Of a stretch of DNA of 8,220 nt, positions 2 through 8,220 are shown one piece after another. Position 1 is the first letter of the stretch. Each line of letters opens with the position of its first letter. Below the pieces are notes generated by a model. It was not told the origin of the DNA and ran no database searches. It saw nothing but the letters and a program-made list of their open reading frames with translations. Source of the stretch: a virus. Lineage: Duplodnaviria > Heunggongvirae > Uroviricota > Caudoviricetes. The stretch is from positions 1 to 8,220 of the IMG/VR virus record IMGVR_UViG_2778261515_000002; one strand, written 5' to 3'. The position numbers and the translations under genes are program-made.

Positions 2-484
2 TCAGTCTCTCGCTTTTAAAAGCTCCGCCAGCGGATCAACATCATCCGGTCCGGCGGTATTTACTTTCGCCCGGCTTGCCGGTGACATACCAAATTCTGC
101 AAGCATCGCCCGGATCCGCTTCCAGGCATCCGCTTTCATCGCAGCAGCCGGGTGTGCCTTAATCAGCACATCACCGTTCTGCGTTTCCGTGCGGTAGGTA
201 TACCCCTCAACATCGAGTGTTTCGCAGTGATGCCGGTATTCGGTGTAGGCTTCCACCAGTAACTCGAGTGCACGCGCATCAAGCTGAGAAATGATCCCTT
301 CCGCATTCAGTTCTTCCGCCATTCGCCTGAACCAGTACTTCCCCTGCGACCCTAAATGTTGCGGAATTTTAGGGAGACATTTTTCATCCTTTTTAGCGGT
401 TTTTTTTGGGTCTTTAACGGGGCGCTTTGAGGGGTTGCCTCGTATCAAATGCAGGCGTGGCGGGGTTTTCAGGGGTCCTGACAT
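2..484 (-). CDS. Phage terminase small subunit (P27/HK97-type TerS)
   Basis: 160-aa ORF with ATG at 484-482 and TGA at 4-2. Basic N-terminus (KRPVKDPKKTAKK) and a KAHPAAAMK motif resemble P27-family small terminases. Sits directly downstream of an HNH endonuclease gene, as in HK97-like packaging modules. Family assigned from motifs and context, not from a search. Confidence 0.75.
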   Translation of the reverse strand: MSGPLKTPPRLHLIRGNPSKRPVKDPKKTAKKDEKCLPKIPQHLGSQGKYWFRRMAEELNAEGIISQLDARALELLVEAYTEYRHHCETLDVEGYTYRTETQNGDVLIKAHPAAAMKADAWKRIRAMLAEFGMSPASRAKVNTAGPDDVDPLAELLKARD

Positions 485-631
485 AATCGGTTTTACCTAT
501 CAATCATTTAATCACATTCCAAAAAAAAGTTTTCGAACCTGCGGCGATGCGAGGAAAGGTCAGGCGGCGGTACTGAGCAGCCTGGGTTGCAGAAATTTGA
601 CCCGCCCCTCCCCTGCAGGTGAGAACAATTA

Positions 632-982
632 TCAGTTGATACGTTCGCGCGCAGTTTTTGCTTTATGGCAGGGCCAGCACAGACTCTGCAGGTTACTGTC
701 TGCATTCGTGCCACCATGAGCTTTCGGAATGATGTGGTCCACAGTTCTGGCTTCAACGGCTCTCCCATCGCGCAGGCAGTTCTGACACAGATGATTATCA
801 CGCTTCAGTATGCGCGCACGTATGGCATCCCATTTCGAGCCATAGCCACGCTGGTGGCGGCTCAGTCCGCGTTGGTGCTGCACCCAGCCTTCACCCCGAT
901 GTTTATCGCAGTAGCCAGAGCTGTCTGTTGTTGTGCCTGCGCAGCCTCGCTTACGACATGCGCGGGGGATTTGTGGTGGCAT
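632..982 (-). CDS. HNH endonuclease (packaging-associated)
   Basis: 116 aa from ATG at 982-980, with AGGAG about 9 nt upstream (the track ORF starts at an upstream GTG at 1018). Contains CxxC pairs and the HNH core DHIIPKAHGG...N...CWPCHKAK. Stop TGA at 634-632. Confidence 0.8.
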   Translation of the reverse strand: MPPQIPRACRKRGCAGTTTDSSGYCDKHRGEGWVQHQRGLSRHQRGYGSKWDAIRARILKRDNHLCQNCLRDGRAVEARTVDHIIPKAHGGTNADSNLQSLCWPCHKAKTARERIN

Positions 983-3013: not shown

Positions 3014-3088
<75 letters not shown>

Positions 3089-3348: not shown

Positions 3349-4395
3349 TTAACTATTTTCTTTTATTTCGCTTACAGTCTGGTTAAATCTCTCTTCTTCC
3401 AGCTCCACACCTATTGCATGCCGTCCCAGCGATAATGCTGCTTTTATTGTTGATCTCGACCCCATAAAAAAATCAGCAACCAAATCTCCCGGATGGCTGC
3501 TGGCGGTAATTATCTGACGCAACATATCCGCCGGTTTCTCACAGGGATGTTTGCCGGGGTAATACTGCACAGGCTTGTGCGTCCAGACATCCGTATACGG
3601 AACGGCAGCCGATACGGAAAAATAACGCCGCAGAGATTTGTACTCATCCAGCAGGCTGGCATATTGCCGGTTCAGTTCACTGTATGTGCTGACCAGCTGG
3701 TGGTGTGGCTTTTCCAGTTCACCGCGCTGATGTTTTTCTGCTGCAACACGCGCAAACAACGCCTGTAATTTCAGATAATCGCCTTCGTTCGGCAACTGCC
3801 ACTGACTGGTACCAAACCAGTGCGAAGCCATGTTTTTCTTTCCGGTGGCTTCCGCTATCTGTTTTGCCGTTATCCCCAGTGATTCACGCGCATCACGAAA
3901 GTAAGAAATCAGCGGGGCCATGACGTGCTGTTTTAGTTCACGCCCCTTTGCCGCATAGCCGTCATTTTTGGGCAGGTATGGCCCCTGATAATGTTCTGCA
4001 AACAGAATGCGTTCTGTTGCCGGGAAATACGCCCGCAGGCTTTCCTTGTTGCATCCGTTCCAGCGCCCGGACGGCTTCGCCCAGATAATGTGGTTCAGCA
4101 CATTAAAGCGTTCACGCATCATGATTTCGATATCAGATGCCAGGCGATGACCACAGAACAGGTAGAGACTTCCGGCAGGCTTCAGTACCCGCCAGAACTG
4201 CGCCAGACATCGGTCCAGCCATTTCAGGTAATCATCGTCGCCCTTCCACTGGTTATCCCAGCCCTCGGGCTTCACTTTAAAGTATGGCGGGTCTGTGACT
4301 ATCAGATCGACAGAATTTTCCGGTAAGGTCTGGATAAATTCCAGGCAATCAGCGTTGATTAACTCACAACTGGATATTTTTACAGTATTAGTCAT
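3349..4395 (-). CDS. DNA methyltransferase, beta-class (N6-adenine/N4-cytosine family, DPPY motif), no restriction partner in window
   Basis: 348 aa from ATG at 4395-4393. Motif IV (LIVTDPPYF) lies near the N-terminus and the SAM-binding motif I-like segment (DFFMGSRSTIKAA) near the C-terminus; this circular permutation defines beta-class amino-methyltransferases. DPPY rather than SPPY favours N6-adenine. No restriction endonuclease gene is adjacent. Confidence 0.85.
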   Translation of the reverse strand: MTNTVKISSCELINADCLEFIQTLPENSVDLIVTDPPYFKVKPEGWDNQWKGDDDYLKWLDRCLAQFWRVLKPAGSLYLFCGHRLASDIEIMMRERFNVLNHIIWAKPSGRWNGCNKESLRAYFPATERILFAEHYQGPYLPKNDGYAAKGRELKQHVMAPLISYFRDARESLGITAKQIAEATGKKNMASHWFGTSQWQLPNEGDYLKLQALFARVAAEKHQRGELEKPHHQLVSTYSELNRQYASLLDEYKSLRRYFSVSAAVPYTDVWTHKPVQYYPGKHPCEKPADMLRQIITASSHPGDLVADFFMGSRSTIKAALSLGRHAIGVELEEERFNQTVSEIKENS

Positions 4396-5191: not shown

Positions 5192-6289
5192 ATGAAAAAA
5201 TTAACAGTGGCAATCTCTGCTGTAGCTGCGTCAGTATTAATGGCGATGTCTGCTCAAGCAGCAGAGATTTATAACAAAGACAGCAACAAACTGGATCTGT
5301 ACGGAAAAGTTAATGCCAAGCACTACTTCTCCTCTAACGATAAACACGATGGTGACAAAACTTATGCTCGTCTGGGCTTCAAAGGCGAAACCCAAATCAA
5401 TGATCAACTGACTGGTTTCGGTCAGTGGGAATATGAATTCAAAGGCAACCGTGCTGAATCTCAAGGTTCTTCCGGGGATAAAACTCGCCTTGCATTCGCT
5501 GGCCTGAAATTCGGTGACTACGGCTCCATCGATTATGGCCGTAACTACGGTGTAGCATACGACATCGGTGCGTGGACTGACGTTTTGCCAGAATTCGGTG
5601 GTGATACCTGGACTCAAACCGACGTATTCATGACTCAGCGTGCAACTGGTGTTGCAACTTACCGTAATAACGACTTCTTCGGTCTGGTTGATGGTCTGAA
5701 CTTTGCTGCTCAGTACCAAGGCAAAAACGATCGTAGCAAGCTCGATAACTATACCGAAGGTAACGGTGATGGCTTCGGTTTCTCTGCTACCTATGAATAC
5801 GAAGGATTCGGTATTGGTGCAACTTATGCGAAATCTGACCGTACCGACACTCAAGTTAATCTAGGGAAAGTTCTTCCTGGAGTATTTGCTTCCGGTAAAA
5901 ATGCAGAAGTTTGGGCCGCTGGTCTGAAATATGACGCTAACAACATTTACTTGGCCACTACCTATTCTGAAACCCAGAATATGACGGTATTTGCTGATCG
6001 CTTCGTCGCTAATAAAGCTCAGAACGTTGAGGCTGTTGCACAATATCAGTTCGATTTTGGGCTGCGTCCGTCCGTGGCTTACCTGCAATCTAAAGGTAAA
6101 GATCTCGGAGTATGGGGCGATCAAGACTTAGTTAAATATGTTGATGTAGGCGCAACCTATTACTTCAACAAAAATATGTCTACTTTCGTTGATTACAAAA
6201 TCAACCTGCTTGACAAAAATGATTTCACCAGAGGTCTTGGTATAAACACCGACGATATTGTTGCTGTCGGTATGGTTTACCAGTTCTAA
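5192..6289 (+). CDS. nmpC: Outer-membrane porin, OmpC/OmpF/PhoE family (prophage NmpC/Lc type)
   Basis: 365 aa from ATG 5192 with AAGGA SD 7 nt upstream; TAA at 6287-6289. Signal peptide [23 protein letters not shown] followed by [16 protein letters not shown], and a C-terminal ...VAVGMVYQF beta-barrel signature. Opposite strand to all phage genes, immediately downstream of Q as in DLP12 and PA-2. Codon usage looks host-optimised. Confidence 0.9.
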
Positions 6290-6478: not shown

Positions 6479-6862
6479 TCAATAACATCTAACAACTTCA
6501 AGATCCATCTCGAGACGAACATCCAGTGCCATCAACATTCCGTCGACTATTCCTTCAGCCTTCTGAAGTTTTTTTCCTATATATCCATCAGAACAATGAT
6601 GCTTACGGGCCAGTGCCATAAACGTCATACCAGCCACATAATAATCTACCAGCAAATCATGCAAATCACTGTTGTTCTTTTTCAAACGAGCCATACACCC
6701 ACAAATAACCATTGCGTCATCATCACTACATTGCGGTCGCGATTTAACCTTTGAAGGAATAAGTCCCTTGAATCCGGCTGCAATCGATGACCAGGTGACA
6801 TCCTCATGATTATTTGCCACCCATGCCCCCCAACGCTCAAGAACCATCTGAATATCACGCAT
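6479..6862 (-). CDS. Late-gene antiterminator Q (small Q family, quuD/phage-82-like)
   Basis: 127 aa from ATG at 6862-6860 with AGGAGGTG SD upstream. Begins [14 protein letters not shown] and contains the Cys-rich segment [18 protein letters not shown]. Located before the porin as in DLP12 (quuD-nmpC). Confidence 0.8.
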
Positions 6863-7119
6863 CAGCGCAGCACCTCCTGCACCAGTTTTTCAAACTTTCC
6901 AACTCTGGTTTCCAGCTCTGCCACACAATCCACCAGCTCATCCACCGCTTTTTGTGCGCGGTGTTTCGCCTGCATCAGTTCCCTGAGCGCTGGCACCATA
7001 TCCCGACGAATGGCATCTTTTGTTACACCTGTTTTTTCCAGTTGTTCCGCCTGTCGCAACATTTCCTGTGCCTGTTTACGTAATTGTTCAGGGGTAAAAG
7101 GTGTTGTCTGGTTGTTCAA
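6862..7119 (-). CDS. Hypothetical small coiled-coil protein
   Basis: 85-aa ORF whose first codon is TTG (7119-7117), overlapping the helicase stop (TTGA); its stop overlaps the Q start (TGATG). The first in-frame ATG is at 7062 (66-aa alternative). Strongly helical, charged sequence; no recognised family. Confidence 0.4.
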
Positions 7120-8220
7120 AAGAAACGCTCCATCTTACTGCTGTCAGTTCGTTTGTTGCTGTATCTGCGCGGCTGGGGCTGCTGCATTGGGGTAGAAAGA
7201 ATCTGTGCGCTTTCCTGATCCACAGGCAGAAAATGTCCGTTATAAAAACGCCGGTAAATCGTTCCCAGAGAACCGTTACGTTGTTTCGTGATATTGATTT
7301 CTGCGATGCCCCTGGCCTGCGTATCCGGGTTGTACACTTCATCCCTGTAAAGCATCAGAATGATGTCTGCATCCGCCTCTATTTCTCCGGAATTTTTCAG
7401 GTCTGAGTTCATGGGGCGTTTATTGGGCCTGGACTCCACACCGCGGGAGAGCTGACTCAACGCAACCACCGGTAATCCGCCGGATTTTGCCAGGCCTTTA
7501 AGCCCCTTTGAGATTTCACCCACGGCAAGGTCATGACGCCCCGTGCTCCGGGTTTTTATCAGCCCGAGATAATCAACCACCACCAGCGCCGTTTCCGGAT
7601 GTTTAATCAGGTGGTGTTTCGTTGTTGCGTATATCTCGTCAATGGTCAGGTTCGCCTGGTCCACCATCCAGATATTGCGCCCGGTCATCCGCCCCACTCC
7701 TTGTGAGAAACGTGCCCAGTCTTCGTCTTCAAAGTGAGTGACAGATTTCAGGCGTGATACCGGCATTCCTCCAGCCGCAGATACCATGCGCTCACCAATC
7801 TGGATGTTCGCCATTTCCATTGTGAACAGAAGAACACCATGCCCCTGCTCAGTCACCTTGTCGATGATATCCAGCGCCAGTTCGGTTTTACCCATCGAAG
7901 GACGAGCCGCAATAAATACCAGGTCGCCGGGTTCCATACCGCCTGTTTTTGCGTCCAGTTCATCAATACCGGTCATCAGCGTCCTGGATTTCTCCAGCCC
8001 CTGATTCCGGCATTCAACACGTTCAACCACTTCCGGAAGCACATCATCAATATGTACCGGCTGAATAATACCCTTCCCCGTCGACAATGAGGCCATCATG
8101 TTCTGCGCATCCTTCAGAGCATCTTCAGCTGCTTCACAGGTATGCGCATCACGTAATTTCTGTAATGAACCGCCCCGGAAATCCTGGAGACTAAACTCCC
8201 TGAGAAAGAGGTAAACAGGA
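7116..8220 (-). CDS. DnaB-family replicative DNA helicase, 5'-partial (N-terminus beyond window end)
   Basis: The frame is open from the window edge (8219) to TGA at 7118-7116, about 367 codons in the window. DnaB C-terminal RecA-like domain with Walker A (IAARPSMGKTELA), the ...LMTGIDELDAKTGG... linker and ...ADADIILMLYRDEVY... The track ORF begins at an internal Met (8099). Confidence 0.85.
   Translation of the reverse strand, partial: PVYLFLREFSLQDFRGGSLQKLRDAHTCEAAEDALKDAQNMMASLSTGKGIIQPVHIDDVLPEVVERVECRNQGLEKSRTLMTGIDELDAKTGGMEPGDLVFIAARPSMGKTELALDIIDKVTEQGHGVLLFTMEMANIQIGERMVSAAGGMPVSRLKSVTHFEDEDWARFSQGVGRMTGRNIWMVDQANLTIDEIYATTKHHLIKHPETALVVVDYLGLIKTRSTGRHDLAVGEISKGLKGLAKSGGLPVVALSQLSRGVESRPNKRPMNSDLKNSGEIEADADIILMLYRDEVYNPDTQARGIAEINITKQRNGSLGTIYRRFYNGHFLPVDQESAQILSTPMQQPQPRRYSNKRTDSSKMERFF

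What the first reader, a model, noticed from the sequence alone, without database searches (positions are those of the whole stretch)
485..631. Putative cos / packaging recognition region between the HNH endonuclease and TerS
The 147-bp gap between the HNH stop (632) and the TerS start (484) holds GC-rich stretches (GCGGCGATGCGAGGAAAGGTCAGGCGGCGG, GACCCGCCCCTCCCCTGCAGGTGAG) and no ORF. In HK97-type phages an HNH protein adjacent to a P27-type TerS is required for cos cleavage, and cos lies exactly in this interval. If so, this is the physical genome end of the phage and shows the prophage retains a packaging-competent module.
Basis: partly seen in the sequence, partly recalled or inferred. Interest (0 to 1): 0.4.

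Follow-up and report, generated by a model that had tools for sequence, protein, structure and literature searches.

The report
Cohesive-end (cos) site of a prophage
The 147-base gap between the HNH nuclease gene and the small terminase gene is almost certainly the cos site, the place where this E. coli prophage's DNA is cut for packaging; it is a well-known kind of site found in about one in eight complete E. coli genomes, so it is ordinary.

Summary
The gap 485-631 lies between an HNH gene (632-982, -) and a P27-family small terminase gene (2-484, -), and both quoted GC-rich strings are at the stated places. The gap as a whole is not GC-rich (0.483, the same as the window).

The gap aligns without gaps to the cos regions of HK97, SfI and phiP27. 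In all four, the T of TCAAAT in a G-rich box lies exactly 41 nt before the cut. This puts the predicted 10-nt 3' overhang at window 560-569 (CGCCGCCTGA on the - strand).

Across 41 relatives from about 20 genera, the nick core (560-574) and a 29-bp block after the cut (521-549) are more conserved (0.89 pairwise identity) than terS codon position 2 (0.86). The spacer between box and core is not (0.46). The 521-549 block always occurs with one TerS class. The box and core are shared by three TerS classes, and mosaic joints fall exactly at the predicted cut.

Corrections: TerS is not detectably related to HK97 gp1. The prophage's helicase gene is split by an IS3 element, so packaging competence is not shown. 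No virion ends were seen. This is a new member of a known kind.

The parts
632..982 (-). HNH endonuclease gene (116 aa), the terminase-associated nuclease of HK97-like cos phages
   Evidence: Pfam HNH E=5e-16. It is 37% identical to HK97 gp74 over 70 aa, E=1e-11. The best solved relative is 5H0M, an HNH endonuclease. This region is about 81% identical at DNA level to phiP27 L34 plus its cos-proximal DNA.
620..634 (-). TGATAATTGTTCTCA, a palindrome-like element that overlaps the HNH stop codon; a candidate accessory cos element of unknown partner
   Evidence: The consensus tga.a.c.att.tcat is kept at 60% or more in the 42-sequence alignment. It is also present in HK97/mEp235-type right ends that have no HNH gene directly adjacent, but not in the Proteus-type right ends. 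Its function is inferred only.
595..613 (-). G-box GGGGAGGGGCGGGTCAAAT, the upstream cos element shared by phages with three different TerS classes
   Evidence: It is present in HK97, SfI, phiP27 and the window, with T of TCAAAT exactly 41 nt before the cut in each. Mean pairwise identity is 0.73 over 41 sequences. A role in termination or nuclease positioning (lambda cosQ-like) is inferred.
575..594 (-). Variable spacer of fixed length between the G-box and the nick core
   Evidence: Mean pairwise identity is 0.46, below terS codon position 3 (0.51). The length is invariant among HK97, SfI, phiP27 and the window.
560..574 (-). cos nick core AGTACCGCCGCCTGA. The predicted 10-nt 3' overhang is 560-569 (CGCCGCCTGA). 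The gene-strand nick falls between 560 and 559 and the other-strand nick between 570 and 569.
   Evidence: It aligns in register with the last 10 nt of the HK97 record (CGCCGCCAAA), the phiP27 annotated cos-site (CGCCCGCCCC) and the SfI end-sequenced gap (TGCCCGCCCC). Mean pairwise identity is 0.89. Mosaic joints fall exactly here.
550..559 (-). +1 to +10 of the predicted left genome end (CCTTTCCTCG)
   Evidence: Mean pairwise identity is 0.81 among class-A relatives.
521..549 (-). CATCGCCGCAGGTTCGAAAACTTTTTTTT (+11 to +39), the candidate TerS recognition site (cosB-like), made of a GC motif followed by an A/T tract
   Evidence: Mean pairwise identity is 0.89 across about 20 genera, higher than terS codon position 2 at 0.86. 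It is found with class-A TerS in 56 of 56 distinct viral loci. Class-B (P27/SfI) TerS has TTTTTAY..CGCGAAA at the same place instead. In HK97 the TerS site was mapped at +15 to +29 and is also a G:C pair next to an A-tract (PMC11331095). Binding by this TerS is inferred.
485..520 (-). Lineage-specific leader of terS with a weak Shine-Dalgarno (TAGGTA), containing an IHF-like consensus at 498-510 (+)
   Evidence: This stretch is shared by phi467, PhiR49_2 and 640R1. Most other class-A loci have a GGGGnnCCCC palindrome and AGGAG here. WATCARNNNNTTR occurs once in the window, at 498-510, where 0.67 matches per window are expected by chance.
2..484 (-). Small terminase gene (160 aa), P27 family (Terminase_4)
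   Evidence: Pfam PF05119 E=1.7e-25. PGAP names the gene 'phage terminase small subunit P27 family' in the 99.96% identical genome. It is 74% identical to mEp235 TerS and 23% to phiP27 TerS, and has no similarity to HK97 gp1.

Best explanation
The gap is the cos site of an HK97/phiP27-type cos-packaging lambdoid prophage, and it is built from modules.

Proposed mechanism, read in gene direction (- strand). On concatemeric phage DNA, the P27-family TerS binds the 29-bp block 11-39 bp after the cut (521-549). It recruits and positions the HK97-type TerL, whose gene starts just beyond window position 1. TerL, together with the HNH endonuclease (632-982), makes two nicks 10 bp apart in ACCGCCGCCTGA. 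This leaves 10-nt 3' overhangs (560-569). DNA is then packaged from the terS side around the whole genome. Packaging stops at the next cos, where TerS bound just beyond the nick site acts as a roadblock. The G-box, 41 nt before the cut (595-613), serves as the upstream, TerS-independent part of the signal.

Shown here: the sequence architecture, its register with mapped cos sites, its conservation, its association with the TerS class, and the gene families. Inferred from HK97 biochemistry and from SfI/phiP27 end mapping: TerS binding, the nick positions, the polarity of the overhang, and the role of the G-box.
For: The phiP27 record annotates a 10-nt cos-site between its HNH and TerS genes. 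The window is 81% identical to phiP27 from the HNH gene up to that point.

The HK97 record ends ...GACCGCCGCCAAA and starts GTTTGAATTT. HK97 has 10-nt 3' overhangs, a TerS site at +15 to +29, and gp74-stimulated cleavage (PMC9410871, PMC11331095). In SfI, run-off sequencing of virion DNA left a 10-nt gap TGCCCGCCCC, and its record ends there (PMC3636060). In HK97, SfI, phiP27 and the window, the distance from TCAAAT to the cut is exactly 41 nt. The motif occurs in 0 of 200 shuffles of the window.

Conservation over 41 sequences from about 20 genera: nick core 0.89, +11 to +39 block 0.89, G-box 0.73, spacer 0.46. For comparison, terS codon positions 1/2/3 give 0.82/0.86/0.51.

The downstream motif class matches the TerS class in 62 of 63 distinct loci with no cross pairs, while identical overhang sequences occur with both classes. 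L093 and L138 are identical for 75 nt upstream (one mismatch) and diverge exactly at the predicted cut.

The adjacent TerL in the 99.96% identical genome is 29% identical to HK97 gp2 over 455 aa (E=6e-41) and has the same Pfam domains. Portal, HK97-family protease and capsid genes follow it. No Rfam family, no terminator and no credible ORF is found in the gap.
Against: There is no direct evidence on virion DNA ends for this prophage or for any class-A (mEp235-like TerS) phage. None of about 200 viral contigs ended at the predicted cut.

The overhang sequence (CGCCGCCTGA) differs from every mapped one, so the exact nick positions rest on register alone. How the phiP27 cos was determined could not be checked because the paper is not held.

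The association between the downstream block and the TerS class could simply reflect physical linkage, since the two are about 40 bp apart.

TerS has no detectable sequence similarity to HK97 gp1. A single-sequence structure model was too poor to compare folds.

This copy carries one change from the cross-genus consensus (TTAGAAAAC to TTCGAAAAC) and lacks the palindrome and strong SD found in most relatives, although its whole lineage, including phage phi467, shares these features.
Confidence: 0.88

Rival explanations
1. The sequence is a cos site by descent, but this copy is inert. The prophage is defective, so the site is never cut and merely persists in the chromosome.
For: The DnaB-like helicase gene of the prophage is split by an IS3-family element, whose end lies at window 8166-8220. 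Both halves are flagged as pseudogenes in the 99.96% identical genome. The terS Shine-Dalgarno is weak (TAGGTA versus the family AGGAG).
Against: HNH, TerS, TerL, portal, protease, capsid and tail genes are all annotated intact. The cos core and the TerS block are the majority variant among related viral loci (22 distinct loci carry CGCCGCCTGA). The weak SD is shared by the whole lineage, including the Stx2f phage phi467. A cos site can also be used by a co-resident helper phage of the same terminase type.
Confidence: 0.3
2. The gap is only an expression leader for terS (promoter, RBS or RNA element), and the GC-rich strings are incidental.
For: There is one weak sigma-70-like match at 478-507, on the + strand opposite to the genes. 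The terS ribosome-binding site lies at the end of the gap.
Against: The promoter-like count equals the chance expectation (1 versus 0.5 +/- 0.7), and there is no terminator and no Rfam hit. The conserved blocks match DNA ends mapped in HK97 and SfI in exact register. The G-box and nick core are shared by phages whose terS genes are unrelated in sequence.
Confidence: 0.03
3. The phage packages by a headful (pac) mechanism, and the conserved blocks form a pac site without fixed ends.
For: P27-family TerS has no solved structure or biochemistry here. Small terminases of pac and cos phages look alike (PMC9410871).
Against: TerL is of the HK97 type. An HNH gene sits next to terS, which is the hallmark of HNH-dependent cos phages (PMC3592412, PMC9410871). 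SfI, which has a P27-family TerS and the same architecture, has fixed ends with a 10-nt gap (PMC3636060).
Confidence: 0.03

Closest known systems
phiP27 cos-site (AJ298298 / NC_003356, misc_feature 21806-21815, CGCCCGCCCC)
   Same: It lies in the same position between an HNH gene and a P27-family terS. The HNH gene, the G-box and the left half of the nick core are about 81% identical to the window, and the G-box-to-cut spacing is the same.
   Different: From the cut onward the two are unrelated: 27% identity to the ATG, and the TerS proteins are 23% identical. The overhang sequence differs (CGCCGCCTGA versus CGCCCGCCCC), and the downstream block belongs to the other class.
HK97 cos (10-nt 3' overhang; TerS gp1 site at +15 to +29; gp74 HNH-stimulated cleavage)
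   Same: It has a G-box (GGGGGGGGATCAAAT), the same 41-nt spacing, an almost identical core (GACCGCCGCCAAA versus TACCGCCGCCTGA), homologous TerL and HNH proteins, and a GC motif plus A/T tract downstream of the cut (PMC11331095, PMC9410871).
   Different: HK97 TerS shows no sequence similarity and has no Terminase_4 domain. Its downstream site has a different sequence (CTAACCCGATTTTTT). Its HNH gene lies about 320 bp from the end rather than directly adjacent.
Shigella phages SfI / SfV / SfIV cos (TGCCCGCCCC / AGCCCGCCCC)
   Same: HNH, cos and a P27-family terS lie in the same order. The G-box is identical to the window's, the spacing is the same, and the ends were mapped by run-off sequencing of virion DNA.
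   Different: TerS is of class B (P27/SfI-like), with TTTTTATACCCGCGAAAAA after the cut. The overhang is C-rich at its 3' end.
Phage lambda / phage 21 cos (cosQ-cosN-cosB)
   Same: The functional layout is the same: an upstream element and a nick site that are shared between phages, and a downstream TerS-binding part that changes together with the small terminase. The lambda/21 part of this comparison rests on established knowledge recalled from memory.
   Different: Lambda has a 12-nt 5' overhang, needs no HNH protein, has unrelated terminase proteins, and shows no sequence similarity.
Staphylococcal and Bacillus HNH-dependent cos phages (phi12/phiSLT, gamma, GVE2)
   Same: An HNH nicking endonuclease gene lies next to cos and the terminase genes (PMC3592412). 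The closest solved structure to the window's HNH protein is 5H0M.
   Different: The hosts are distant, and no DNA similarity was tested or expected.

Membership tests
HK97/phiP27-type cos site (HNH-dependent, 10-nt 3' cohesive ends) | Lies directly upstream of terS, at the end of the late lysis region, next to an HNH endonuclease gene | tested here: met
   The order is lysis genes, HNH 632-982, gap 485-631, terS 2-484, all on the - strand.
HK97/phiP27-type cos site (HNH-dependent, 10-nt 3' cohesive ends) | Sequence alignable in register with experimentally mapped cos sites (G-box, fixed spacer, ACCGCC core) | tested here: met
   The distance from TCAAAT to the cut is 41 nt in HK97, SfI, phiP27 and the window. 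The motif occurs in 0 of 200 shuffles.
HK97/phiP27-type cos site (HNH-dependent, 10-nt 3' cohesive ends) | HK97-type large terminase (TerL_ATPase plus TerL_nuclease) encoded next to terS | tested here: met
   The gene is outside the window but present in the 99.96% identical genome. It is 29% identical to HK97 gp2 over 455 aa, E=6e-41, with the same Pfam domains.
HK97/phiP27-type cos site (HNH-dependent, 10-nt 3' cohesive ends) | gp74-like HNH endonuclease | tested here: met
   Pfam HNH E=5e-16. It is 37% identical to gp74 over 70 aa, E=1e-11.
HK97/phiP27-type cos site (HNH-dependent, 10-nt 3' cohesive ends) | Virion DNA has fixed ends with a 10-nt 3' overhang at this site | not testable with these tools
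   No virion reads are available. No viral contig ended at the predicted cut.
HK97 gp1 small terminase family | TerS homologous to HK97 gp1 | tested here: not met
   BLASTP gives no alignment at E<=100. gp1 has no Terminase_4 hit. A fold comparison was inconclusive: the model had pLDDT 65 and found no PDB match.
P27-family small terminase (Pfam Terminase_4, PF05119) | Match to the family profile above the curated cut-off | tested here: met
   89.7 bits against a cut-off of 24.7. PGAP gives the same name. Within the family it belongs to the mEp235-like subclass (74% identity), not the phiP27/SfI subclass (23%).
TerS recognition site (cosB-like) at 521-549 | Conserved non-coding block downstream of the cut that changes with the TerS class | tested here: met
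   Identity is 0.89. Class A goes with motif a in 56 of 56 loci, and class B with motif b in 6 of 7. The caveat is that the two are physically linked.
TerS recognition site (cosB-like) at 521-549 | Specific binding by the cognate TerS | not testable with these tools
   This needs EMSA or footprinting. HK97 is the precedent (PMC11331095).

The most novel reading that the evidence does not exclude
The exact-nucleotide mosaic joints at the predicted cut would be footprints of module exchange at the terminase-made DNA ends. The same right end, overhang included, is joined to two unrelated left ends (TerS site plus terS), and the window itself is phiP27-like up to the cut and mEp235-like after it. 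Arms of different phages that share a compatible overhang would be joined by annealing of cohesive ends, or by recombination started at the cos break. The cos cut would then be the preferred swap point for small-terminase specificity modules in HK97-like phages of Enterobacterales.
Probability: 0.35. Interest if true: 0.45.

Novelty: new member of a known kind. Interest (0 to 1): 0.25.

Why it matters
The site fixes the predicted physical ends of a prophage type present in 702 of 5,426 complete E. coli genomes, a type that includes the Stx2f phage phi467. This helps genome annotation (where to linearise records), the design of induction and transduction assays, and the building of cos-based packaging vectors or detection of satellites that copy this cos. 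The split into shared parts (G-box and nick core) and a TerS-class-specific block gives a testable recognition site for a P27-family small terminase; by sequence search no solved structure of a relative was found, and I found no mapped DNA site for this TerS class. None of this changes current understanding of cos packaging.

Tried and rejected
(1) The phiP27 genome paper and the Kala et al. 2014 HNH paper could not be read because they are not held. How the phiP27 cos was mapped therefore rests on the GenBank feature alone.

(2) The closest phage records (vB_Eco... series) turned out to be prophages found in silico in clinical isolates (bioRxiv 10.1101/2022.06.29.498070). They give no evidence on particles or ends.

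(3) Record ends were checked for Fraca, Providencia PSTRCR_117lys, mEp235 and F1055. None starts at the predicted cut. Two show odd junctions near cos that look like assembly artefacts.

(4) Two IMG/VR scans found no contig ending at the cut.

(5) A single-sequence AlphaFold model of TerS (pLDDT 65) gave no significant PDB fold match. It could not test a structural relation to HK97 gp1.

(6) The sequence search of TerS against PDB found only chance-level hits.

(7) The Rfam scan, the terminator scan and the repeat search in the gap found nothing meaningful. Inverted repeats I1-I3 are short and imperfect.

(8) The IHF-like consensus at 498-510 is the only one in the window, but it is near chance level (0.67 expected per window) and is not conserved outside the lineage. 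It was not adopted as part of the model.

(9) The first attempt at a locus search with an alignment that included phiP27 TerS failed because that sequence is too divergent.

Full report
WHAT IS THERE

The window is part of a lambdoid E. coli prophage whose genes run on the - strand. In order they are:
- a DnaB-like helicase gene (7116-8168);
- a Q-like antiterminator (6479-6862);
- an OmpC-like porin on the + strand (5192-6289);
- a DNA methyltransferase (3349-4395);
- a tRNA-Gly (3014-3088);
- holins and an M15 endolysin (1222-1608);
- an HNH endonuclease (632-982);
- the 147-bp gap (485-631);
- a small terminase gene (2-484).

The window is 99.96% identical to a prophage of E. coli strain rl0044 (NZ_CP121356). 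In that genome the next genes are an HK97-type large terminase, portal, HK97-family prohead protease, major capsid and tail genes. All of them are annotated as intact.

OBSERVATION

The gap as a whole is not GC-rich (0.483 against 0.484 for the window), and its terS-proximal third is AT-rich. Composition by itself would not single this region out. There is no credible ORF, no Rfam family and no terminator in the gap, and the promoter-like count is at the chance level.

IDENTIFICATION BY HOMOLOGY

A search of phage records found phiP27, whose record carries a 10-nt 'cos-site' feature (CGCCCGCCCC) between its HNH gene (L34) and its small terminase gene (L35).

The HK97 record ends ...ATGACCGCCGCCAAA and begins GTTTGAATTT. 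HK97 virion DNA has 10-nt 3' overhangs. Its small terminase binds +15 to +29 after the cut, and cleavage is stimulated by the HNH protein gp74 (PMC9410871, PMC11331095).

For Shigella phage SfI, run-off sequencing of virion DNA left a 10-nt gap TGCCCGCCCC, and the record was made to end there (PMC3636060).

When the four sequences are lined up at the cut, no gap is needed. Each has a G-rich box ending in TCAAAT whose T lies exactly 41 nt before the cut, and each has an ACCGCC core.
- SfI: GGGGAGGGGCGGGTCAAAT-N20-GGACTGCCCGCCCC|GTCG
- HK97: GGGGGGGGGATCAAAT-N20-ATGACCGCCGCCAAA|GTTT
- phiP27: GGGGAGGGGCGGGTCAAAT-N20-GGGACCGCCCGCCCC|GTCA
- window (- strand): GGGGAGGGGCGGGTCAAAT-N20-AGTACCGCCGCCTGA|CCTT

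The predicted overhang is therefore window 560-569 (CGCCGCCTGA on the - strand). The gene-strand nick falls between 560 and 559. The combined motif occurs once in the window and in none of 200 shuffles.

CONSERVATION

Thirty-five prophage loci with the same TerS subclass were retrieved from about 20 genera of Enterobacterales, plus one genome labelled Pseudomonas. Together with five phage records they were aligned to the window, 41 sequences in all.

Mean pairwise identity by block:
- G-box 596-614: 0.73
- spacer 575-595: 0.46
- nick core 560-574: 0.89
- +1 to +10: 0.81
- +11 to +39 (521-549): 0.89
- remaining leader 485-520: 0.78

In the same sequences, terS codon positions 1, 2 and 3 give 0.82, 0.86 and 0.51. 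Two non-coding blocks are thus more conserved than the second codon position of the adjacent gene, while the spacer evolves like silent sites. This is the pattern expected for protein-recognised DNA separated by a spacer of fixed length.

MODULAR STRUCTURE

The window's TerS belongs to Pfam Terminase_4, the P27 family. It is 74% identical to mEp235 TerS but only 23% identical to phiP27 TerS. It shows no similarity to HK97 gp1, which also lacks a Terminase_4 hit.

At DNA level the window is 81% identical to phiP27 over the 420 nt before the cut, and 27% identical from the cut to the ATG. Against mEp235 it is 54% identical over those 420 nt and 71% identical after the cut. The window is thus a mosaic whose joint is at the cut.

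A scan of IMG/VR for the G-box/core motif gave 119 loci, of which about 20 were chance matches. Among distinct sequences:
- the block CCGCAGGTT[A/C]GAAAAC-T-tract always goes with class-A TerS (window/mEp235-like), 56 of 56;
- TTTTTAY..CGCGAAA goes with class-B TerS (P27/SfI-like), 6 of 7;
- there are no cross pairs, although the same overhang sequences (for example CGCCCCCTTA and CGCCGCCTTA) occur with both classes.

L093 and L138 are identical for 75 nt before the cut, apart from one mismatch, and become unrelated at the first base after it.

The upstream G-box and the core are therefore shared by phages with three TerS classes that are unrelated in sequence. They probably serve the conserved TerL/HNH nuclease. 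The block after the cut is specific to the TerS class, like the experimentally mapped HK97 site, which is also a G:C pair next to an A-tract (PMC11331095). The layout parallels lambda cosQ-cosN-cosB (from memory). One caveat applies: the block and terS lie only about 40 bp apart, so their association could come from linkage alone.

MECHANISM

TerS binds 521-549. TerL and the HNH protein nick 10 bp apart in ACCGCCGCCTGA. Packaging runs from terS through the whole genome and stops at the next cos, where bound TerS blocks the motor and the nick site sits in the nuclease.

Shown here: the architecture, the register with mapped sites, the conservation, the association with TerS class, and the gene families. 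Inferred: TerS binding, the nick positions, the polarity of the overhang, and the role of the G-box.

Right: cos is in this gap, the system is an HNH-dependent cos system with a short 3' overhang, and the site is the genome end.

Wrong or overstated:
- HK97 does not have a P27-type TerS by sequence, so the proposed refutation test (TerS must match gp1) would have wrongly rejected a correct call.
- The two GC-rich strings are different elements. One is the G-box. The other straddles the overhang and the start of the TerS block.
- Packaging competence is not shown. The prophage's helicase gene is split by an IS3-family element whose end (TGAACCGCCCCGG...) occupies window 8166-8220.

PREVALENCE AND NOVELTY

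The 147-bp gap is found in 702 of 5,426 complete E. coli genomes, mostly at 95-99% identity. It is also present in the Stx2f phage phi467 (PMC7366253). The placement of HNH genes next to cos and the terminase genes is well described (PMC3592412). This is a new member of a known kind. I found no published end mapping for the mEp235-like TerS subclass, so the overhang CGCCGCCTGA and the site 521-549 are predictions.

LIMITS

No virion DNA ends were available. No contig ended at the cut. The basis of the phiP27 annotation could not be read. The TerS fold could not be compared with gp1.

Noticed in passing
window 8166-8220 and 7116-8168: The last 55 bases of the window are the end of an IS3-family element (TGAACCGCCCCGG...). 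It interrupts the DnaB-like replicative helicase gene of the prophage. In the 99.96% identical genome both gene halves are flagged as pseudogenes, so the prophage is probably unable to replicate by itself.
   Followed up: partly
window 5192-6289 (+), 3014-3088 (-): An OmpC-like porin gene in the opposite orientation and a tRNA-Gly(tcc) lie between the Q antiterminator and the lysis genes. According to the literature, this is the slot where the related phages phi467 and phiP27 carry Shiga toxin genes. It looks like a moron cargo position.
   Followed up: no
L006 (Escherichia phage CharmingMan, PP925830) about 525-560: The cos nick core is inverted (GCGCCTTAGGCGGCGGTCCTTTGGCGC instead of GCGCCAAAGGACCGCCGCCTAA|CC). 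This is unique among more than 150 loci examined. One edge of the inverted piece coincides with the predicted 3' end. It may be a real inversion between 5-bp inverted repeats or an assembly artefact at the physical end.
   Followed up: partly
L014/L015 (phage Fraca, LR597645), L052 (phage Evi, LR597642), L012/L013 (Providencia phage PSTRCR_117lys, MW358929): Three phage records have odd junctions close to the predicted cos. In Fraca, the TerS-site block is duplicated around a fragment from inside TerL. In Evi, an inverted copy of the 5' part of terS is fused at the T-tract. In PSTRCR_117lys, about 42 bp around the cut are missing at the circularisation point. These are probably assembly artefacts caused by the physical ends.
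   Followed up: partly
L005, L007-L010, L016-L050, just upstream of the terS Shine-Dalgarno; absent at window 485-520: Most class-A loci have a GGGGnnCCCC palindrome whose flanks change in a compensating way (TTGGGG..CCCCAA, CCGGG..CCCGG) between the T-tract and the SD. The window's lineage lacks it. Instead it has a weaker SD and an IHF-like consensus at 498-510 (+).
   Followed up: partly
window 620-634 (-): The palindrome-like element TGATAATTGTTCTCA overlaps the HNH stop codon. It is also present in HK97- and mEp235-type right ends where no HNH gene is directly adjacent. It resembles a Fur-box-like TGATAAT..ATTATCA motif (resemblance recalled from memory). Its partner is unknown.
   Followed up: no
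L072, L079, L095, L134 (IMG/VR): These are natural hybrids with a phiP27-type right end (GGGACCGCCCGCC) and a window-type left end. Their overhangs (CGCCCGCCAA / CGCCCGCCTA) look like a blend of the two parental overhangs, which suggests that the exchange took place inside the 10-nt cohesive end.
   Followed up: partly
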